Below are positions 6,070 through 62,311 of a stretch of DNA of 64,000 bases, piece after piece (the first letter of the stretch is position 1; every line of letters starts with the position of its first letter). The position numbers were made by a program, and so were the translations under genes. Where the stretch lies: positions 1,020 to 65,019 of the IMG/VR virus record IMGVR_UViG_3300033489_000601. One strand, given 5' to 3'. The DNA comes from a virus. The notes below the pieces were generated by a model. The model did not search any database. It was not told the DNA's origin and saw nothing but the letters and a program-made list of their open reading frames with translations.

Positions 6070-6510
6070 ATGGGCATTCAGGCTGGCTACTACAAGGCGC
6101 GCGCGGTCCCGGCGAGCTTCACGAGGGGCAATTCGAAGCAGAAGGGGACGCCGTTCTACGCGTTCCACATGGTGACCGAGGCGGGCGACGGATATGTGGG
6201 CGGCGAAGAGATCCTGTGCACGATCTACGTCACGCCGCTGACGGCTGAGCGCGCGAAGAAGAGCCTCGAGATCGCCGGCTGGAAGGGTGGCGCGCTCCCC
6301 GGCACGCTCGGCTCGACGGTGTGCGAGGTCGAGGTGAAGGACGATGGCAAGTACGGGATGAAGTGCGAGATCGTCGACCCGAACCGCCTCCCGCCGGCCA
6401 TTGACGCGAGCGCGGTCCCCGACTTCGACGCGCAGATGTTCGCGCTGATGGGTGCGAACCCGCCGCCCGCTGGTGGTGGCTCCGGCATCGACGGCGAAAT
6501 CCCGTTCTGA
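6070..6510 (+). CDS. Phage single-stranded DNA-binding protein (DUF669-like)
   Basis: GYYKARAV...GNSKQKGTP N-terminus and acidic C-terminal tail DGEIPF; usual position after Sak4. Confidence 0.75.
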   Translation: MGIQAGYYKARAVPASFTRGNSKQKGTPFYAFHMVTEAGDGYVGGEEILCTIYVTPLTAERAKKSLEIAGWKGGALPGTLGSTVCEVEVKDDGKYGMKCEIVDPNRLPPAIDASAVPDFDAQMFALMGANPPPAGGGSGIDGEIPF

Positions 6511-6520
6511 TCGTCGCCGC

Positions 6521-6570
6521 CCGCGAGCTCGGCCCGGACCTCTGCGGAAAACCGCGGGGCCGGGCTCGCG
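6521..6570 (+). other. Leader hairpin with CTGCGG-AAAA-CCGCGG apex before an AGGAGG SD
   Basis: CGCGAGCTCGGCCC pairs with GGGCCGGGCTCGCG; member of a repeated hairpin family (see findings). Confidence 0.55.
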
Positions 6571-6586
6571 ACGTCAGGAGGTTACG

Positions 6587-6895
6587 ATGTACGCTTCAAA
6601 GGCTCTGTTTGGTGGTCAGGCGGCGACGGCAGGTCGGACTGTTGTGGTAAATTTTGGCTTCGGTCCCCGCGCGGGGATCATTATGGAGGTGTCGGTCGAC
6701 GACACCCCGGAGATCCATGTGTTCGGGCGATCGCCGCTCGAGCGCCCGCTGACGTTCGTCGGCCTTGGCGACCCAGCGTCGGCCGACTCGATGCCGATCG
6801 ATACGTGGGGGTGGCCCCCGATCGTCCGACGCGAGGCGCCCGTGTTGCGCGAGGGACATAAGGCCGACGGGTCGCCGAACGGGCGCTTCGCATAA
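6587..6895 (+). CDS. Hypothetical protein
   Basis: AGGAGGT SD, ATG 6587, 102 aa. Confidence 0.7.
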   Translation: MYASKALFGGQAATAGRTVVVNFGFGPRAGIIMEVSVDDTPEIHVFGRSPLERPLTFVGLGDPASADSMPIDTWGWPPIVRREAPVLREGHKADGSPNGRFA

Positions 6896-7148
6896 TCGAT
6901 CCCGCAGTCGAACCACGCCCCGTGCGCCCCGGAAAACCTGGGCTGCGGGGCTCGACGCGTTGAAGGCATAGGAGTCCTGTCAGGAGGAGGATGCGCTATG
7001 GCCCGCGCGCGAAAGCGCTAACGGGGCTGCACAGAGGAGAACAGACAGCCCGTCGATCGGCCCCGCGTGGCGCGGTTTCATCGACGGGCGCGCCAGCCTC
7101 GGACGCTGCGGACAACCGCGGATCCGGGGCTTCGGCGCGTAGGAGGAT

Positions 7149-7511
7149 GTGATGGGAATTGACTACAGCACGGGGGCGATGTTCGGGGCGTTCGCGAAGA
7201 AGGGTACGGAGGCTGAGGAGAAACTGGCGCAGATGGTTGTCGACTCGCTGGAGGCCGACGGCGATAGCGCGGTCGCGCTTCCTAACGGCGCCGTTGTTTG
7301 TCGCACAGGCAACGCGTGGAGCGGCGAGTACTTCTACTCAATCAGGGTTGGCGCGTCCCATAGCTTCACCTCGCGCGGAGGCGGATACTCGGGGCCGTTT
7401 TCGCCGCCTGAAGATGGCGCCTCGAAGATCAACGACGCGATCGCAGTGCTCGGCTTGAGCCCAGCCGAGTTTACGGGCGTTGGCCATTATTTGACGCTCG
7501 ACGTGTTCTGA
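7149..7511 (+). CDS. Hypothetical protein
   Basis: AGGAGG SD at 7141-7146; 120 aa, globular composition. Confidence 0.7.
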   Translation: MMGIDYSTGAMFGAFAKKGTEAEEKLAQMVVDSLEADGDSAVALPNGAVVCRTGNAWSGEYFYSIRVGASHSFTSRGGGYSGPFSPPEDGASKINDAIAVLGLSPAEFTGVGHYLTLDVF

Positions 7512-7703
7512 GCCGCGGTCACCACCGCCGTCGCCCCCGTGGAGGTCATACTCCTGGGGGCTTCGGCGCGTGAGAGCACGGCGCATAGTGCGCACGGCCT
7601 CGGGTGATTTGCAGTCAGCGAAGGGGAACGGAAAGCATGCCCTAGCCCGCTCTATTCAGCTCAGCAGCGCGCCGCAGCATGCCCATGCGGGCGGCGCGCG
7701 TTT

Positions 7704-7776
7704 GGCCTTCAAGCTCAGGTCGAGCCCCGCGCAGACGTGCGTGGACGGTGCGGGTTCGATTCCCGCGAGGGTCACC
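7704..7776 (+). ncRNA. tRNA-like element / pseudo-tRNA with aberrant anticodon loop (Val-GAC-like)
   Basis: Acceptor GGCCTTC/GAGGGTC plus A73 and CC; D arm GCTC-AGGTC-GAGC; canonical T arm GCGGG-TTCGATT-CCCGC; 5-nt variable loop; anticodon loop is 8 nt (CAGACGTG) and lacks U33. Confidence 0.6.
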
Positions 7777-7798
7777 GGGTAACAACCGAGGAGAACAC

Positions 7799-8656
7799 AT
7801 GGGCCAAAACAGCTTAATCTCGTGGACGAACCACACATTCAACGGGCTCCGGGGCTGCGCAAAGATCAGCGCTGGGTGCCATAACTGCTACGCCGAATCG
7901 ATGAGTCGCCGCAACCCGGCGCTGCTCGGCGTGTGGGGCGAGGAGGGGACGCGGGTGCTCGCCTCGGAGAATATGTGGCGCGAGCCGCTGCGCTGGAACC
8001 GAGACGCCGAGAAGGCCGGTGTCCGTGCGCGCGTGTTTGCGTATTCGCTCGGCGACGTCTTCGAGGTGCCGACGAAGCCGGAGAACCTCGCGGTGTGTAC
8101 CGCGGCACGAGCGCGGCTCTTCCCCCTCATCGAGTCGACGCCGTGGCTCGACTGGTTGCTCCTGACGAAGCGCGCGGAGAAGATCATGGACCTCGTGCCG
8201 ATGGCGTGGCGCGAGCGCTTCCCGGCGAACGTGTGGATGGGCACGAGCGTGGAGGATCAAGCCGCGGCCGACGAGCGGATCCCGCACCTGCTCCGCGTGC
8301 CTGCGCGCGTGCGCTTCTTGAGCATGGAGCCGCTGCTCGGACCCGTGGCCATCCAGCAATGGTCGAAGGGCTGTCTCGACGAGGACGAGCGAGGTATGCG
8401 CGGCGTCCGCGGGCCCGATTGGGTGATCGTCGGCGGCGAGAGCGGCGGGCACGCGCGCTCGATGCATCTCGAGTGGGCGCGGTCGCTGCGTGCGCAGTGC
8501 CTTGCGGCGAGCACCCCGTTCTTCTTCAAACAGGCTGGCGCGCGGCCCGTTGATCACGCAAGGCTCGTTCGTCTGCGCGATAAGAAGGGCGGCGACCTCG
8601 GCGAGCTCCCGGCCGACCTGCGCGTGCAGGAGTTCCCCCAGCCGAGGACGACGTGA
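7799..8656 (+). CDS. DUF5131 (phage Gp37/Gp68) radical-SAM-like protein
   Basis: ISWTNHTFN..GCAKISAGCHNCYAE (CX6CX2C), WLLLTKR, NVWMGTSVEDQ, RFLSMEPLLG, DWVIVGGESG, FFFKQ. Confidence 0.92.
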   Translation: MGQNSLISWTNHTFNGLRGCAKISAGCHNCYAESMSRRNPALLGVWGEEGTRVLASENMWREPLRWNRDAEKAGVRARVFAYSLGDVFEVPTKPENLAVCTAARARLFPLIESTPWLDWLLLTKRAEKIMDLVPMAWRERFPANVWMGTSVEDQAAADERIPHLLRVPARVRFLSMEPLLGPVAIQQWSKGCLDEDERGMRGVRGPDWVIVGGESGGHARSMHLEWARSLRAQCLAASTPFFFKQAGARPVDHARLVRLRDKKGGDLGELPADLRVQEFPQPRTT

Positions 8657-8844
8657 TCGTCCGCTTTGTCTTCGGCCCGCCGGAGAGCGGTGAGGCTGCG
8701 TGCGCGGCGGCGTGCTTCGTGGCGCACAGAATGCCCATCGACGCGACGAGCGACACGCTGCACGACATCGCCTGGGCGCTTGTGGGCCTCGGCCTCTTCG
8801 TGCCGGGCGCGGCGATCCGTCATCCGGGGGCGCGGCTGTGCTGA
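8653..8844 (+). CDS. Small hypothetical protein
   Basis: 63 aa; overlaps the DUF5131 stop (GTGA) and the start of the next gene. Confidence 0.45.
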   Translation: MIVRFVFGPPESGEAACAAACFVAHRMPIDATSDTLHDIAWALVGLGLFVPGAAIRHPGARLC

Positions 8845-9413
8845 CCGTCTACACCGCGCGCATCACGTACACCGGCCCCGACCGCCTCGACATCACGCGC
8901 AAGGGCAATGACCCGATCGGCGTGGCGTTCGCGCCGACGTGGGCGATCCTCGAGCCGGCGCTCGACGCGGGCGTCGAGGCGAAGCTCATCCAAGAAGCTG
9001 CCCACGCTGGCGGGTATGACCGCAGCCTTGCGGCACACGATGTTCGGTCGATGCTCGAAGACTCATGGTCGACGTACGTCGACGCGTACACGGGCGAGAT
9101 GCGCGTGAGCGCCGGGATGGACGAGAAGAACCCGCGCTTCGGGTTCTTCGAGCGGCGCGCTGTGGCACGCGGCTGTCGCCCTCGCCCCGAAGCCTGGGCC
9201 TCGGTTCGCGCGCGCTGTCAGGTGGTGCTGTGCTGCTTCTGCACCGAGCCGACGCGCTGTCATCGCCGACTGCTCGCGGGCTTCCTCGTGAAGCGTGGCG
9301 CGGAGGACGGTGGTGAGCTGATCCAGCGCGGGCGCTGCGAGGTCGACGGCTGCGGGCGATTGCTCTTCGTCGTGCCGAGCGGCCTCGTCTGCGATCAGGG
9401 TCACGGCCAGTGA
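8838..9413 (+). CDS. DUF488-like protein
   Basis: VYTARI..RLDITRK..FAPTW..W..Y...Y..EMR.S...VLCCFC.....CHRRLLA pattern. Confidence 0.7.
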   Translation: MLTVYTARITYTGPDRLDITRKGNDPIGVAFAPTWAILEPALDAGVEAKLIQEAAHAGGYDRSLAAHDVRSMLEDSWSTYVDAYTGEMRVSAGMDEKNPRFGFFERRAVARGCRPRPEAWASVRARCQVVLCCFCTEPTRCHRRLLAGFLVKRGAEDGGELIQRGRCEVDGCGRLLFVVPSGLVCDQGHGQ

Positions 9414-9471
9414 AGCCGGCCCACACGCGAGGATGTAGACCGCGGCCAGAGCCCCGCGCGAGGGTAGCACG

Positions 9472-9867
9472 ATGACCGCGGCGCTCCTCACCGCTCGAGC
9501 CGTCGCCGCTCAGCTCAGCGTGAGCGAGCGGCAGGCCTATCTGCTGATGCGGGAGATGGTGCACGTTCAGCTCGGCCGCTCGATCCGCGTGACTCCCGCC
9601 GCTCTCGCGGCCTATGTTCGCCGCCGGACGGCCATCCCATGCGCGACCAACACAGGCTCTATCGGCGGAAGAAGAACGGGCGCGAACTGCCTACGTGGTG
9701 GTGTGAGTACTACGACGCAGGCCACAAGCGCATCCAACGATCCACAGGATGCCGCGACCGGAAGGCCGCCGAGGCTCGCGCTCGTGAGCTCGAACGCGTT
9801 GCCGCTGATCCGGCCCACGCAGCCGCGCACAAGATCACGATCAGGGACGCTCTCCAGCGAGTCGTAG
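9472..9867 (+). CDS. xis: Excisionase-like winged-HTH protein
   Basis: LLTARAVAAQLSVSERQAYLLMRE...LGRSIRV, immediately upstream of and overlapping the integrase. Confidence 0.75.
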   Translation: MTAALLTARAVAAQLSVSERQAYLLMREMVHVQLGRSIRVTPAALAAYVRRRTAIPCATNTGSIGGRRTGANCLRGGVSTTTQATSASNDPQDAATGRPPRLALVSSNALPLIRPTQPRTRSRSGTLSSES

Positions 9868-10979
9868 TCGACCGGGCCGCGCAGGGGCGTGCGAAGGGCA
9901 CCGTCGAGATGTACGCCTCGAAGGCCGGCGCGTTCCTGCGGGTCTGGGGCGAGGACTTCCCGCTTGCTCAGGTCGACGCCAAGCCCGTGGACGCCTTCAT
10001 CGAGCAGCGGCTCACGGAAGGCGCATCACGCAGCACGATCGGCAAAGAACTAACGACGCTGCGGATCGCGTTGAAGCTCGCGCGCCGGCGCGGCGAGTAC
10101 CACCTCGCGATCGAGCAGGTGATGCCTGAGCGGTGGACGGTGAACTACGAGCCGGGGACGCGCCACCTCACCGCCGAGGCCTTCGAGCGGCTGCTCCCTG
10201 AACTCCTCGCTGACCGCGGCGCTCACGTGTGCTTCATCGTCGCGACGGGCGCGGACCTGGCGCCGAGCCTCACCGCACGCCGCATCGACATCGATCTCCA
10301 GAAGGGCATGGTGCAGGTGGGCGGCACGAAGACGGCGCACCGCGCTCGCACCGTGCCGATCGCCTTCCCTTGGCAGCGCGCCCTCCTCGCTCGCGTGCTC
10401 GAGGTCTGCGGCGGCAAGCCGGGACCGCTCTTCCGCCCGTGGGGGAACGCGGTGCGCGAACTCGCGGCGGCGTGCCAGCGCGCGGGCGTTGAGCGCGTGA
10501 CGCCTCGTGACCTCCGACGGACCTACGCACAGTGGTTGCGAGGCGCGAAGGTGCCGCCGTCGCTCGTGGGGCCGATGATGGGCCACGGCGACGGGCGCAT
10601 GGTCGAGAAGGTCTACGGGCGTCTCACGCCGGAGGAGCTCGCGCGCCAGGTCGCCGCCTACGCCCCGCAGGAGGCCGCGGGGCTCGTGTTGAGCCTGAGC
10701 GAGGACGGGCGCCTGAGCGTGTCGCGAGAGCCGACCTCGGCCGAGCTGAACGCGCTGAGGGCGGGGCTCGCTCGGCTCGAGGAGCGGTGTCACGCCCGTG
10801 TCACGCGTTCGGTCCGTGGCGGTGCAGAAAATGCGGGGGGTGCAGAGCGGGAGCCGCTCAAAACGTCCGTAAATACAGTGCCCAGGGGCGGAATTGAACC
10901 GTCGACACGAGGATTTTCAGTCCCCGCGTCACGGCGCTCCTACGACGGTAGATCAAGCCCACAGCGGCGGGCGGGGTGA
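9639..10979 (+). CDS. int: Tyrosine recombinase/integrase; C-terminus runs through attP
   Basis: N-terminal arm-binding region (WWCEYYD...IQRSTGCRDRKAAE), SAM-like core, PRDLRRTYA, MMGH and EKVYGR (Tyr nucleophile); box I reads TGADLAP. Confidence 0.88.
   Translation: MRDQHRLYRRKKNGRELPTWWCEYYDAGHKRIQRSTGCRDRKAAEARARELERVAADPAHAAAHKITIRDALQRVVVDRAAQGRAKGTVEMYASKAGAFLRVWGEDFPLAQVDAKPVDAFIEQRLTEGASRSTIGKELTTLRIALKLARRRGEYHLAIEQVMPERWTVNYEPGTRHLTAEAFERLLPELLADRGAHVCFIVATGADLAPSLTARRIDIDLQKGMVQVGGTKTAHRARTVPIAFPWQRALLARVLEVCGGKPGPLFRPWGNAVRELAAACQRAGVERVTPRDLRRTYAQWLRGAKVPPSLVGPMMGHGDGRMVEKVYGRLTPEELARQVAAYAPQEAAGLVLSLSEDGRLSVSREPTSAELNALRAGLARLEERCHARVTRSVRGGAENAGGAEREPLKTSVNTVPRGGIEPSTRGFSVPASRRSYDGRSSPQRRAG
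10878..10925 (-). mobile_element. attP core: 3' half of tRNA-Phe(GAA)
   Basis: Reverse complement GGGGA-CTGAAAA-TCCTC-GTGTC-GACGG-TTCAATT-CCGCC-CCTGGGC-AC comprises anticodon arm, T arm and acceptor 3' strand; no D arm or 5' half; phage genes on both sides. Confidence 0.88.
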
Positions 10980-59941: not shown

Positions 59942-62311
59942 TCAGGAGTGGGGGACGAGGTGGTGAACCGCGGCCAGTTCGACCTCGAGGGGCGTCACGG
60001 TCGGCTGAGCATGTCGCTCGTGCAGCCACATCCAAACGTTCAGGCGCTCGCCGTAGTGGGTGCGGGTTTTCTTCCGCTCGTACCCAAGTCGTCGCAGAAC
60101 AGCGCCCATCCTGAGCGCGTCGAGGTGCTTCCTCTGCGCGGGCTCGAGCTTCATCGAGTCGAAGATGTCGCTGATGTGGATCTGGTCCTGCGGGAACTTC
60201 TGCGGCTGGCGGTTGGGCTTCTTTGCGAGCCAGCGCTCAACGACCTCGAGCCATGGGTCGTCCTCGACGGCGTGGCGCTCAGCGGCGAGCTCGCGGGCGG
60301 CGTCTTCCTGCGGGGTGAGCCACCATTTGAACGGGTTCTCTTCGGCCTCGATGCCGGCAGTCTCGTGCGCCTGGTAGGAGCGGAGGAGGTGGACGGCTTC
60401 GGCCCAGACCTGATCGCGCATGAGGGCGAGAGCGGCGAGGTCGATGCGCTGTCCGGCGAGGGGGTCGAGGTGATCGAGGTCGATGATCCAGAAGCGCCGG
60501 GAGCCCGTGGGGTCGGTGAGGAACTTCTCCTTATTCGTGCTGCCGACGATGACGCCGCTCCGCTTGTGGGAGGCGACAGCTGCGGCGTAGGGCGCGCGGA
60601 AGGTGTCTTCTTGGCACGTGATGAAGCCCTTGACCTCGCCGGCGTGGCGCATGCTCGTGATGGCGTCGATCTCGCCCCACTCGTAGATCCACGCGCTGTG
60701 GAGCTGCAGGTAGGCGTCCTTGTTCGCGATGTCCATCTTCGTGTTGCGGAACCACGGCGAGCCGATGACGCGGAAGAAGCCGCTCTTCTTGAGCCCCTGA
60801 TGGCCAAAGAGCACGAGCGCTGTGTCGACCTGGCAGCCGGGGACGAACGCGCGGGCGACGGCGGAGATGAGCCACTTCTGCAGGAAGACCGCGGCGAGTG
60901 GCTGCTCCTCGAGGTTGATCTTCAGCACCATCTGCGCGAGCGCGTCGACGCGCGAGACGCCATCCCACGCGGGAAGCCCGTCGAGGTAGGCGCGCACGGG
61001 GTGGAACGACTGCTCGTGGGCCACGTGGATGACCGCGGCCTTCACGTTCTCGGCGGACGGCGCGAAGCCGTGGTCGAGTTCGATGCGCTCGCGCAGCGCG
61101 CTCAGGTCGTGCCCCTCGCGCTGCGGCTCGCCGTCGACGACGGGGTTGAGGGTCATCTCGTTGAAGCTCAGGCGCCGCGCGGGGTTCGTCGGGCAGCCGC
61201 CGTAGATATGCCGCACGACGGCGCAGACGTTCGCGTATGTGCCCTTGCTCTCGCCCGTGCGCTTGTCGCGCTTCAGCGACAGCACGGGGATGCTCTGCAC
61301 GTCGCGGAGGAGCGCCGCGGCGTCGGGGCTGAGGGTGGGGCTCTCCCCCTGGATGGCGGCTCGCTCCTCGGCCTCTACAGCCGCGGATGTAGAGGTGGGC
61401 GCAGCAGAGCGCGGAGGGGCATCGGGCACGGCGAGCGGCTTCGTCGCGCCCTCGCGCAGGCCGTCGCGGATGGCCTTCAGCGTGTTCGCCTCGCGCTCGG
61501 CGTCCCACCCGCCGGCGCGCGTTGCGTGGAGGAGTCGCGCCTCGGCCTCGTGCTCAGCGAGGAGCCCCGCGCCGACATAACCGCCGACCTTGTGCGCCTT
61601 CGCGTACGCCGCGGTATGCCGGGCGCCCTTCGGCTCGCTCTGCAGGTCACGGGCGGCTCCGTCGAGCGCGGCGAGGGCGTAGCGGCGAGGGCGGGTGTCG
61701 CTGGCCGCTGGCGCGCGCGCAGGGAGGGGTGCAGGCGGCGTGGCGGGCGGTGATGACCGCGGCCCTCTCCGCCGCATCGTCGCGAGCAGCTCCTCCGGCA
61801 CGTCGGCCATCGGCACACTGGCGTCCTCCCACGCGTATGCGTCGCCGCTCGCGTGGCGCGAGGGGGGCGCGATGACGTAGCCGCCGTCGCCGCGCACGTC
61901 GCAGCCGGGAGCGATCTTCTTCGTGCTGTTCGGCACCTTCGCACCGCCGGGGTGGCGGTAGTACAGATGCAGCCCGCCTGAGCCCGTGCGCGCGGCGCGC
62001 GTCGGCGGGAAGAGCGCGCGTGCGGCTTCGAGGTCGGCGCCCCGGAGGTCGATGTCGATGACCACGGTCCCGCTCTCGGCGCCTGTAGCGATCGCGACGT
62101 TGTAATCGCTGGCCCCCCACGCTGCGCGTATAACCGCGGCATCCGTCGAGGCGTCCTTGAGTCCGTGCGGGGTGGCGGGGTGCTTCGCGACGTCAGCGCA
62201 CTTCGGCTTGCCGCACGAGCACGCGCCGGCCGCGGTCACCGTGTGGCAGGGGAAGACCGCGAAGCCGTCGGCGGCGAGGGCGAGAGCGGCGGCGAGGAGA
62301 GAGTCGTTCAT
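59942..62311 (-). CDS. Bifunctional Prim-Pol primase fused to VirE/VapE (SF3-like) helicase
   Basis: AVFPCH, KHPATPHGLKDAS, NVAIATG, VVIDID, TGSGGLHLYY, DVRGDGGYVIAPPS; helicase LVLFGHQGLKKSGF, WIYEWGE, FRAPY, VGSTN, DPTGSRRFW. Confidence 0.95.
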   Translation of the reverse strand: MNDSLLAAALALAADGFAVFPCHTVTAAGACSCGKPKCADVAKHPATPHGLKDASTDAAVIRAAWGASDYNVAIATGAESGTVVIDIDLRGADLEAARALFPPTRAARTGSGGLHLYYRHPGGAKVPNSTKKIAPGCDVRGDGGYVIAPPSRHASGDAYAWEDASVPMADVPEELLATMRRRGPRSSPPATPPAPLPARAPAASDTRPRRYALAALDGAARDLQSEPKGARHTAAYAKAHKVGGYVGAGLLAEHEAEARLLHATRAGGWDAEREANTLKAIRDGLREGATKPLAVPDAPPRSAAPTSTSAAVEAEERAAIQGESPTLSPDAAALLRDVQSIPVLSLKRDKRTGESKGTYANVCAVVRHIYGGCPTNPARRLSFNEMTLNPVVDGEPQREGHDLSALRERIELDHGFAPSAENVKAAVIHVAHEQSFHPVRAYLDGLPAWDGVSRVDALAQMVLKINLEEQPLAAVFLQKWLISAVARAFVPGCQVDTALVLFGHQGLKKSGFFRVIGSPWFRNTKMDIANKDAYLQLHSAWIYEWGEIDAITSMRHAGEVKGFITCQEDTFRAPYAAAVASHKRSGVIVGSTNKEKFLTDPTGSRRFWIIDLDHLDPLAGQRIDLAALALMRDQVWAEAVHLLRSYQAHETAGIEAEENPFKWWLTPQEDAARELAAERHAVEDDPWLEVVERWLAKKPNRQPQKFPQDQIHISDIFDSMKLEPAQRKHLDALRMGAVLRRLGYERKKTRTHYGERLNVWMWLHERHAQPTVTPLEVELAAVHHLVPHS

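What the first reader, a model, noticed from the sequence alone, without database searches (positions are those of the whole stretch)
7660..7798. tRNA-like element with an 8-nt anticodon loop directly upstream of DUF5131
Seen: 7704-7776 folds into a cloverleaf with a 7-bp acceptor stem (two G-U pairs), A73-CC, a canonical T arm (GCGGG-TTCGATT-CCCGC), a short 5-nt D loop and a 5-nt variable loop. The anticodon arm is abnormal: the loop is CAGACGTG with no U33. A GC hairpin (7666-7699) precedes it and the DUF5131 RBS follows within about 12 nt. Inference: it may be a decayed tRNA-Val(GAC), a +1 frameshift suppressor, an RNase P/Z processing signal that matures the downstream mRNA, or a decoy for host anticodon nucleases or uncharged-tRNA sensors. 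The phage also encodes an Rnl1 ligase.
Basis: partly seen in the sequence, partly recalled or inferred. Interest (0 to 1): 0.66.

Follow-up and report, generated by a model that had tools for sequence, protein, structure and literature searches.

The report
Non-decoding tRNA-like element in a phage operon
A 73-base stretch just upstream of a phage gene folds like a tRNA, but its anticodon arm is closed off, so it almost certainly cannot read codons; it is most likely a degenerate phage tRNA that host tRNA-trimming enzymes can still cut out of the messenger RNA, an ordinary kind of feature with one unusual detail.

Summary
Window 7704-7776(+) is a tRNA-shaped cloverleaf. In a local scan it scores 31.6 bits against Rfam tRNA (cut-off 29, E 1e-4). 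ARAGORN calls it only below its default threshold, as tRNA-?(Val|Arg)(gacg).

It is a poor tRNA. All 46 tRNAs of a Gemmatimonadota genome from the likely host phylum score 51.6-76.9 bits. It has A8 in place of U8, a 5-nt D loop and no U33. Its 8-nt "anticodon loop" folds shut into a 7-bp stem with a GACG tetraloop. The acceptor and T arms are canonical, with U-1, G1:C72 and A73-CC.

It is not the attP. A tRNA-Phe 3' half, 44/48 identical to Gemmatimonadota tRNA-Phe, lies inside the 3' end of the integrase gene 3.1 kb downstream.

I found no second copy, no parent tRNA and no homologue. None of 164 other DUF5131 loci has a tRNA-like element upstream.

Best reading: a tRNA-derived, non-decoding element that RNase P and the 3'-end enzymes cut from the operon transcript, dividing it ("punctuation"). 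An inert pseudo-tRNA is nearly as likely. A +1 suppressor is very unlikely. Interest is modest.

The parts
7667..7699 (+). GC-rich hairpin (9 bp + 4 bp, then GUUU) ending 4 nt before the tRNA-like element. It would be the 3'-terminal structure of the upstream RNA if RNase P cuts at 7703/7704.
   Evidence: RNAfold of 7600-7810; sequence. It was not called a terminator by the consensus scan because there is no T run.
7704..7776 (+). tRNA-like element: full cloverleaf plus A73-CC.
   Evidence: Rfam RF00005 31.6 bits, E 1.1e-4; ARAGORN -ps95/-ps90 tRNA-?(gacg); the minimum-energy fold is the cloverleaf.
7704..7710 (+). Acceptor stem 5' strand (GGCCTTC), preceded by T at -1 (7703).
   Evidence: Sequence. 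It pairs 7/7 with 7767-7773, including G2.U71 and U5.G68.
7713..7725 (+). D arm: 4-bp stem and a 5-nt loop AGGTC (GG present, but the loop is too short for a canonical D loop). A8 precedes it where U8 is expected.
   Evidence: Sequence; folds.
7727..7744 (+). Anticodon-arm equivalent. Formally a 5-bp stem with an 8-nt loop CAGACGTG; thermodynamically a 7-bp stem with a GACG tetraloop. No U33.
   Evidence: RNAfold minimum-energy and centroid structures; ARAGORN drawing.
7750..7766 (+). Canonical T arm GCGGG-TTCGATT-CCCGC.
   Evidence: Sequence; aligned to the Rfam tRNA consensus with high posterior probability.
7767..7776 (+). Acceptor 3' strand GAGGGTC, discriminator A (7774) and CC (7775-7776). 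The next base is G, so CCA is not encoded.
   Evidence: Sequence.
7788..7793 (+). Ribosome-binding site GAGGAG of the DUF5131 gene, 11 nt after the element. The same ACnGAGGAGAACA context recurs at 7031.
   Evidence: Sequence; repeat D7.
7799..8656 (+). DUF5131 (phage Gp37/Gp68, radical-SAM-like) gene immediately downstream.
   Evidence: Pfam PF07505 E 1.9e-69; phrog_2045; homologues start at the same residue.
9639..10979 (+). Tyrosine integrase, last gene of the same-strand run.
   Evidence: Pfam Phage_integrase and SAM-like domain; phrog_1 E 1.6e-39.
10878..10925 (-). tRNA-Phe(GAA) 3' half inside the 3' end of int. It is the better attP candidate, so the 7704 element is not needed as attP.
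   Evidence: Sequence; 44/48 identical to a Gemmatimonadota tRNA-Phe; a 30-nt pattern with up to 3 mismatches is found in 62/301 Gemmatimonadota genomes and 3/401 Actinomycetota genomes.

Best explanation
The element is a tRNA-derived RNA that no longer decodes. It lies in a 287-nt gap inside a same-strand early/recombination/integration gene run of a temperate phage whose host is probably in Gemmatimonadota.

Its upper half is intact: a 7-bp acceptor stem stacked on a 5-bp T stem, a canonical T loop, U at -1, G1:C72 and A73-C74-C75. These are the features bacterial RNase P, the 3'-end enzymes (RNase Z/E plus exonucleases) and the CCA-adding enzyme read.

Its lower half is not a working anticodon domain. 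It has A8, a 5-nt D loop and no U33, and the loop is closed into a 7-bp helix with a GACG tetraloop.

Once transcribed as part of the operon RNA, it should be cut at 7703/7704 and just after 7774-7776. That would leave three pieces:
- an upstream mRNA ending in the 7667-7699 hairpin;
- a free tRNA-like RNA of about 73 nt;
- a DUF5131-DUF488-integrase mRNA with a leader of about 22-25 nt carrying its RBS.

What is shown: the anatomy, its statistical reality, the non-decoding loop, and that the element is not attP. What is inferred: co-transcription, the cleavages themselves, and that the phage benefits from them (punctuation) rather than merely tolerating a relic.
For: Reality and anatomy:
- Rfam tRNA hit above the gathering score across the full model.
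- The cloverleaf is the minimum-energy fold with 65% of the ensemble, and the anticodon arm closes to 7 bp plus a tetraloop.
- All 21 cloverleaf pairs are standard pairs, and two more close the loop. The departures from a canonical tRNA all fall in unpaired, tertiary or decoding positions: A8, the short D loop, no U33, one extra loop base.
- RNase P cleavage-site determinants are read directly from the sequence: T7703 at -1, G1:C72, A73, C74, C75 (their role is established knowledge of bacterial RNase P).

Context:
- No sigma-70-like promoter anywhere in 6400-9700, and no terminator-like site in the 7512-7798 gap; the three terminator-like sites the scan found lie elsewhere (6626, 7275, 8646), no more than shuffles give.
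- Flanking genes are on the same strand.
- The ORF that runs through the element (7570-7782) has weak codon-position GC, no good RBS and no homologue.

Exclusions:
- Real tRNAs of a Gemmatimonadota genome (likely host phylum) score 51.6-76.9 bits, so this is not a standard tRNA.
- It is not attP. A tRNA-Phe 3' half sits in int, and the element's 23-nt T-arm/acceptor string is absent from 185,579 species genomes.
Against: - No homologue could be found, so there is no covariation or conservation evidence for any function.
- The intact stems may only mean that decay is recent.
- The short D loop may weaken the D/T elbow that RNase P also contacts.
- In a longer context (7600-7810) the minimum-energy fold partly disrupts the D-arm region. 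The centroid structure keeps the acceptor, anticodon-arm and T helices, but that longer region is no more stable than shuffles (z -0.31).
- None of 164 other DUF5131 loci has a tRNA or sub-threshold tRNA-like element within 600 nt upstream. DUF5131 expression therefore does not generally need one.
- Transcription of the region has not been observed.
Confidence: 0.45

Rival explanations
1. Inert pseudo-tRNA. A former phage tRNA gene, possibly tRNA-Val, was inactivated by changes in the anticodon and D loops. It is simply awaiting deletion, and any processing is incidental and of no use to the phage.
For: - The Rfam score is only 31.6 bits against 51.6-76.9 for real tRNAs.
- ARAGORN at default settings rejects it.
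- There are several non-canonical positions.
- No relative carries it, no second copy exists, and other DUF5131 genes do without it.
- Phage pseudo-tRNAs are common (established knowledge).
Against: - There are at least four or five departures from a canonical tRNA, yet none of the 21 stem pairs is broken. My rough estimate is about a 5% chance if the changes fell at random (inference, not a tool result).
- The loop changes create two extra Watson-Crick pairs rather than disorder.
- A compact phage keeps a 287-nt non-coding gap here.
Confidence: 0.33
2. Decoy or sponge. A stable, non-decoding tRNA mimic that titrates a host tRNA-targeting defence nuclease or a sensor recognising the acceptor/T-arm half of tRNAs, protecting the real tRNAs.
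For: - The top half is intact and the anticodon arm offers no normal loop to cut.
- The phage also carries an Rnl1-type RNA ligase, which suggests its hosts attack tRNAs.
- Phage tRNAs are known to counter tRNA-targeting defences (PMC10264068, PMC11555353; both titles surfaced).
Against: - The published cases listed use functional tRNAs, and in one of them the title says escape is through anticodon-loop mutations. They are not non-decoding mimics.
- A single copy with no promoter of its own argues against high abundance.
- No defence-related or anti-defence gene is adjacent.
- There is no conservation data.
Confidence: 0.08
3. Working +1 frameshift-suppressor or otherwise decoding tRNA with an 8-nt anticodon loop (four-base anticodon GACG or AGAC).
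For: The loop is formally 8 nt, and ARAGORN at a lowered threshold prints a four-base anticodon.
Against: - No U33, so no U-turn.
- The first/last and second/seventh loop bases pair, leaving a tetraloop.
- A8 and the 5-nt D loop are additional defects.
- No parent tRNA differs from it by a single insertion.
- The score is far below working tRNAs.
Confidence: 0.02
4. Recombination site: an attP core, or a relic of one or of an imprecise excision that captured a host tRNA.
For: A tyrosine integrase lies 1.86 kb downstream on the same strand.
Against: - A tRNA-Phe 3' half, 44/48 identical to Gemmatimonadota tRNA-Phe, sits inside the int 3' end and fits the usual attP layout.
- The element's 23-nt 3' string occurs in none of 185,579 species genomes.
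- There is no repeat of its 3' part in the window.
- It is a complete cloverleaf rather than a 3' fragment.
- No host tRNA in five Gemmatimonadota genomes resembles it beyond the T arm.
Confidence: 0.04
5. Chance resemblance, or part of a small protein gene (ORF 7570-7782).
For: An open frame of 70 codons spans it and stops 16 nt before the DUF5131 start. GC-rich DNA forms many helices.
Against: - For the tRNA family alone over the whole window, the expected number of hits is about 3e-6 (scaled).
- The ORF has no homologue and no convincing start or RBS, and its codon-position GC is atypical.
Confidence: 0.04

Closest known systems
Phage-encoded pseudo-tRNAs and degenerate tRNA genes (as flagged 'pseudo' or tRNA-OTHER in phage annotations)
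   Same: It is a tRNA-derived cloverleaf in a phage. It has a low covariance-model score, a defective anticodon loop and no assignable isotype.
   Different: It stands alone rather than in a tRNA array. All helices are intact and the anticodon loop is closed into a longer helix. It sits 22 nt in front of a start codon inside an operon.
tRNA genes co-transcribed with mRNAs and released by RNase P (E. coli thrU-tyrU-glyT-thrT-tufB and secG-leuU; the phage T4 tRNA region); the mitochondrial 'tRNA punctuation' model
   Same: A tRNA-shaped unit lies between coding regions on the same strand. Its acceptor/T-arm half and its U-1/G1:C72/A73CC determinants are those that direct RNase P and 3' processing.
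   Different: In those cases the units are working tRNAs, whereas this one cannot decode. Processing has not been shown here.
mascRNA/MEN-beta tRNA-like structures (Rfam RF01684) at the 3' end of MALAT1/NEAT1
   Same: It is a non-decoding tRNA mimic whose job is to recruit RNase P/Z and define RNA ends, and it has a shortened, non-functional anticodon arm.
   Different: That family is eukaryotic and unrelated in sequence. The Rfam score here is 16.6 bits against a gathering score of 42.5, so this is an analogy of mechanism and not membership.
+1 frameshift-suppressor tRNAs with 8-nt anticodon loops (sufD, sufA6 type); yeast mitochondrial tRNA-Thr(UAG) (PMC3113583)
   Same: The loop is formally 8 nt.
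   Different: Those keep U33, an open loop and an otherwise normal body traceable to a parent tRNA. This element does none of these.
attP cores that copy the 3' end of a host tRNA gene (mycobacteriophage L5, pSAM2, P4 type)
   Same: tRNA-like sequence in a temperate phage near an integrase gene.
   Different: The element is full length and matches no sampled host tRNA. The phage has a separate tRNA-Phe 3' half at int.

Membership tests
Canonical elongator tRNA (Rfam RF00005) | Cloverleaf with 7/4/5/5-bp stems and T-loop consensus TTCRANY | tested here: met
   all stems are paired and the T loop is TTCGATT.
Canonical elongator tRNA (Rfam RF00005) | Covariance-model score in the range of working tRNAs | tested here: not met
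   31.6 bits, just over the gathering score of 29. The 46 tRNAs of a Gemmatimonadota genome score 51.6-76.9. ARAGORN at default settings makes no call.
Canonical elongator tRNA (Rfam RF00005) | 7-nt anticodon loop with U33 and an open 32-38 pair | tested here: not met
   The loop is CAGACGTG with no U33. C-G and A-U pairs close it to a GACG tetraloop in the minimum-energy and centroid folds.
Canonical elongator tRNA (Rfam RF00005) | U8, A14, and a D loop of 7-11 nt carrying G18G19 and A21 | tested here: not met
   A8; D loop AGGTC of 5 nt (GG present, C at the A21 position).
Canonical elongator tRNA (Rfam RF00005) | Aminoacylation and use in translation | not testable with these tools
   Needs an acid-urea northern blot or tRNA sequencing.
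+1 frameshift-suppressor tRNA | 8-nt anticodon loop | tested here: met
   Formally 8 nt between the 5-bp stem strands.
+1 frameshift-suppressor tRNA | U33 U-turn and an open loop presenting four stacked anticodon bases | tested here: not met
   No U in loop positions 1-3, and the loop closes to a tetraloop.
+1 frameshift-suppressor tRNA | Body identical or near-identical to a parent tRNA apart from one inserted base | tested here: not met
   The best real tRNAs reach only 40-43 bits against the element's own model, which scores 108.6 on itself. Val, Ala and Phe are nearly tied.
tRNA-derived attP core | Identity with the 3' part of a host tRNA gene | tested here: not met
   The 23-nt T-arm/acceptor string is absent from 185,579 species genomes. 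Only T-arm-length matches occur in five Gemmatimonadota genomes.
tRNA-derived attP core | Lies next to or within the integrase gene | tested here: not met
   It lies 1.86 kb upstream of int with two genes between. A tRNA-Phe 3' half occupies the int 3' end.
RNase P/Z-processed tRNA-like structure embedded in a longer transcript (mechanistic class, not a sequence family) | Acceptor/T-arm coaxial helix of 12 bp with a canonical T loop | tested here: met
   7 + 5 bp, TTCGATT.
RNase P/Z-processed tRNA-like structure embedded in a longer transcript (mechanistic class, not a sequence family) | Bacterial RNase P cleavage-site determinants (U-1, G1:C72, N73-C74-C75) | tested here: met
   T7703, G7704:C7773, A7774 C7775 C7776. 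Their role rests on established knowledge.
RNase P/Z-processed tRNA-like structure embedded in a longer transcript (mechanistic class, not a sequence family) | Lies within a transcript rather than having its own promoter and terminator | tested here: inconclusive
   No sigma-70-like promoter in 6400-9700 and no terminator-like site in the gap around the element, and the neighbours are on the same strand. However, host promoters are unknown and the 7667-7699 hairpin could terminate transcription.
RNase P/Z-processed tRNA-like structure embedded in a longer transcript (mechanistic class, not a sequence family) | Discrete processed ends in vivo or in vitro | not testable with these tools
   Needs RNA-end mapping or an RNase P assay.
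mascRNA-menRNA (RF01684), tmRNA, bacterial Y RNA | Match to the family model | tested here: not met
   mascRNA scores 16.6 bits against 42.5. ARAGORN finds no tmRNA. There is no other Rfam hit with E up to 10 in 7400-8000 apart from noise.

The most novel reading that the evidence does not exclude
The element is kept by selection as a tRNA mimic that does not decode. One possibility is that it is a punctuation mark: host RNase P and the 3'-end enzymes use it to uncouple the DUF5131-DUF488-integrase message from the upstream early message, a bacterial-virus counterpart of the mascRNA/mitochondrial punctuation logic. The other is that it is a stable decoy for host factors that attack or sense tRNAs through their acceptor/T-arm half.
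Probability: 0.3. Interest if true: 0.6.

Novelty: new member of a known kind. Interest (0 to 1): 0.3.

Why it matters
If selection keeps the element, it would be a clear case of a phage using a non-decoding tRNA shape to make host tRNA-processing enzymes cut its mRNA just before the integration module. It could alternatively distract tRNA-directed immunity. Either would be worth a small experimental study.

If it is only a decaying tRNA gene, it is routine. There is also a practical lesson: standard whole-genome scans (ARAGORN at default settings, Rfam with its speed filters) miss it. Such elements are therefore probably under-counted in phage genomes.

Tried and rejected
**1. attP hypothesis.** This was my first guess, because a tyrosine integrase is nearby. 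I rejected it for these reasons:
- There is no exact host match.
- The 3' part is not repeated in the window.
- A tRNA-Phe 3' half lies in int.

**2. Search for relatives.** Nothing related was found.
- IMG/VR scans were empty or gave only distant or chance matches. I used a 28-mer, DUF5131, int, DUF488, TerL, the upstream 120-aa protein, a D-arm-to-T-loop pattern and an acceptor/D-arm pattern.
- The GTDB scan gave DUF5131 at 52% identity or less.
- Cultured phages matched only in the T arm.

**3. General tRNA-DUF5131 coupling.** None was found in 164 loci.

**4. Second copy or prophage copies.** There is none in the window and none in 151 Gemmatimonadota genomes.

**5. Parent isotype.** This stays unresolved.

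**6. Protein-coding reading of ORF 7570-7782.** There is no homologue and the codon signal is weak.

**7. A layout reported elsewhere in this scan.** That layout is tRNA, small nuclease, then a tRNA copy whose anticodon arm is replaced by a hairpin. It does not apply here: there is no intact tRNA in the window, and the upstream 120-aa protein has no Pfam match (E up to 0.01), no PHROG match and no GIY-YIG motif by eye.

**8. Function of the neighbours.** DUF5131 is a radical-SAM-superfamily member of unknown role (a weak TIGR04471 hit). The one relevant title places DUF488 among ParB-CTPase-fold proteins. Neither points to RNA.

Full report
**What is there.**
The window is bases 1020-65019 of a 65,112-base IMG/VR virus record with about 67% G+C. 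Positions 7704-7776 on the + strand read as a complete cloverleaf:
- acceptor stem GGCCTTC/GAGGGTC, 7 bp, including G2.U71 and U5.G68;
- A8 A9;
- D stem GCTC/GAGC with the 5-nt loop AGGTC;
- stem CCGCG/CGTGG enclosing CAGACGTG;
- variable loop ACGGT;
- T arm GCGGG-TTCGATT-CCCGC;
- discriminator A, then CC, then G.

A GC hairpin occupies 7667-7699. GAGGAG at 7788-7793 and ATG at 7799 open a DUF5131 gene (PF07505, E 1.9e-69). That start is fixed by homologues that all begin at the same residue.

**Is it more than chance?**
In a 600-nt scan the Rfam tRNA model matches end to end at 31.6 bits (gathering score 29, E 1.1e-4 after correction for 4,227 families). RNAfold returns the cloverleaf as the minimum-energy structure, with 65% of the ensemble and z = -2.27.

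The standard detectors are less kind:
- ARAGORN at default settings finds no tRNA in the window. It reports this element only at 95% or 90% of its threshold, as tRNA-?(Val|Arg)(gacg).
- At 90% the window gives 10 hits against a mean of 6.4 in shuffles, so that evidence alone is weak.
- Whole-window Rfam scans drop the hit at their filter stage.

The covariance-model score carries the case, and it is sufficient.

**It is not a working tRNA.**
All 46 tRNAs of a Gemmatimonadota genome (the likely host phylum) score 51.6-76.9 bits with the same model. The element has A where U8 is nearly universal. Its D loop is too short for the usual G18G19/A21 geometry, and no U sits at the U-turn position. The "8-nt loop" does not stay open: C-G and A-U pairs extend the stem to 7 bp and leave a GACG tetraloop, in both the minimum-energy and the centroid structures.

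A +1 suppressor keeps U33, an open loop and a body one insertion away from its parent tRNA. None of these holds here. No parent can be named either. With a model built from the element (R1), the best real tRNAs are Val(CAC) at 42.6 bits, Ala(GGC) at 40.9 and Val(GAC) at 40.0, while the element scores 108.6 on its own model.

**It is not the attachment site.**
A tyrosine integrase (9639-10979) lies 1.86 kb downstream, so I first suspected a tRNA-derived attP. Four results argue against that:
- The 23-nt T-arm/acceptor string occurs in none of 185,579 species genomes.
- The 28-mer occurs nowhere else in IMG/VR.
- The 3' part is not repeated in the window.
- Five Gemmatimonadota genomes hold nothing similar beyond T-arm length.

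The minus strand from 10925 to 10878 runs from the anticodon stem through GAA to the discriminator and is 44/48 identical to a Gemmatimonadota tRNA-Phe. A 30-nt pattern from it, allowing up to 3 mismatches, hits 62 of 301 sampled Gemmatimonadota genomes but only 3 of 401 Actinomycetota genomes. That is the ordinary attP layout. It also suggests the host phylum.

**Context.**
The neighbours on the same strand, in order, are:
- an exonuclease;
- an AAA_24 protein;
- four small unknown genes;
- the 287-nt gap holding two hairpins and the element;
- DUF5131;
- a DUF488-like protein;
- the integrase.

The consensus scan finds no sigma-70-like promoter in 6400-9700 and no terminator-like site in the gap. 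A 70-codon ORF (7570-7782) runs through the element. It has atypical codon-position G+C, no convincing RBS and no homologue among 5.8 billion proteins, so I read the gap as non-coding. The phage does encode an Rnl1-family RNA ligase next to TerL, but nothing ties the ligase to this element.

**Relatives.**
This is the weak point of the analysis.
- The phage has no near relative in the collections I could reach. Scans of IMG/VR with DUF5131, integrase, DUF488, TerL, the upstream 120-aa protein and three DNA patterns gave nothing related.
- The GTDB scan and the metagenome scan gave DUF5131 genes at 52% identity or less.
- None of 164 DUF5131 loci has a tRNA or a sub-threshold tRNA-like element within 600 nt upstream, and model R1 finds only three ordinary tRNAs elsewhere in those loci.
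- R1 finds no second copy in the window and nothing in 151 Gemmatimonadota genomes at E of 1e-9 or better.

Covariation therefore remains untested.

**How it most likely works.**
The pattern of damage is uneven. Every one of the 21 cloverleaf pairs is intact, and the acceptor/T-arm half is textbook. It includes the determinants bacterial RNase P reads at its cleavage site: U at -1 (T7703), G1:C72 and A73-C74-C75. All the departures fall in positions needed for decoding or for the tertiary core. Any such RNA, once transcribed, should be cut by RNase P at 7703/7704 and trimmed at its 3' end. This follows from established knowledge of RNase P, RNase Z/E and the CCA-adding enzyme, and was not tested here.

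The cuts would split the operon RNA into three pieces: an upstream message capped by the 7667-7699 hairpin, a free tRNA-like RNA, and a DUF5131-DUF488-int message with a short leader.

I rate this [quoted passage not shown] at 0.45. The nearly equivalent "inert pseudo-tRNA" gets 0.33. The two differ only in whether selection maintains the element. The intact helices and the two extra loop-closing pairs lean slightly towards selection, at roughly a 1-in-20 chance by a crude count, but they cannot settle it. The remaining readings are:
- decoy for tRNA-directed defences: 0.08 (cf. PMC10264068, PMC11555353, which concern working phage tRNAs);
- att relic: 0.04;
- chance or a small protein gene: 0.04;
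- decoding suppressor: 0.02.

**Verdict.**
This is a real tRNA-like element and it was correctly described. It is best filed as a new member of a known kind: a degenerate, non-decoding phage tRNA derivative. It has an unusual closed anticodon arm and a position that makes a processing role plausible. Interest is modest until the comparative test or an RNase P assay is done.

Noticed in passing
window 10878-10945 (-), inside int 9639-10979 (+): A tRNA-Phe(GAA) 3' half lies within the last ~100 nt of the integrase gene and is 44/48 identical to a Gemmatimonadota tRNA-Phe. It is the probable attP, and integration there would alter the int C-terminus. ARAGORN at -ps95 even calls it tRNA-Phe.
   Followed up: partly
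whole window: The host is probably in Gemmatimonadota. The tRNA-Phe pattern, with up to 3 mismatches, occurs in 62/301 sampled Gemmatimonadota genomes against 3/401 Actinomycetota genomes. The best genome DUF5131 hits are a Gaiellales MAG (Actinomycetota, 52%) and a Longimicrobiales MAG (Gemmatimonadota, 48%).
   Followed up: partly
window 7704-7776: Method point: a hit above the Rfam gathering score is lost when the whole 64-kb window is scanned at either threshold. It appears only when a 600-nt slice is scanned.
   Followed up: yes
window 7126-7145 and 7557-7576; 6542-6564 and 7106-7128: Repeated hairpin-tail motifs occur in the intergenic gaps of this gene run. GGGGCTTCGGCGCGT is exact at two places, and CTGCGGAMAACCGCGG hairpins also recur. 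The copy at 7126 abuts a real RBS and start, while the copy at 7557 is followed by no convincing gene.
   Followed up: partly
window 7799-8656: DUF5131 has a weak, partial match to TIGR04471, 'radical SAM mobile pair protein A' (28 bits, far below the cut-off), and carries the N-terminal Cx6Cx2C motif. It is listed within the radical SAM superfamily in PMC9477430.
   Followed up: no
window 61445-61522 (+): ARAGORN at -ps95 reports a 'tRNA-SeC(tca)' inside, and antisense to, the primase-helicase gene. It has no Rfam support and is probably noise.
   Followed up: no
window 2565-61375 (ten sites): The palindromic operator noted earlier is not exact. The ten listed sites fit YTACANNCGCGNNTGTAR, with variable inner bases.
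   Followed up: partly
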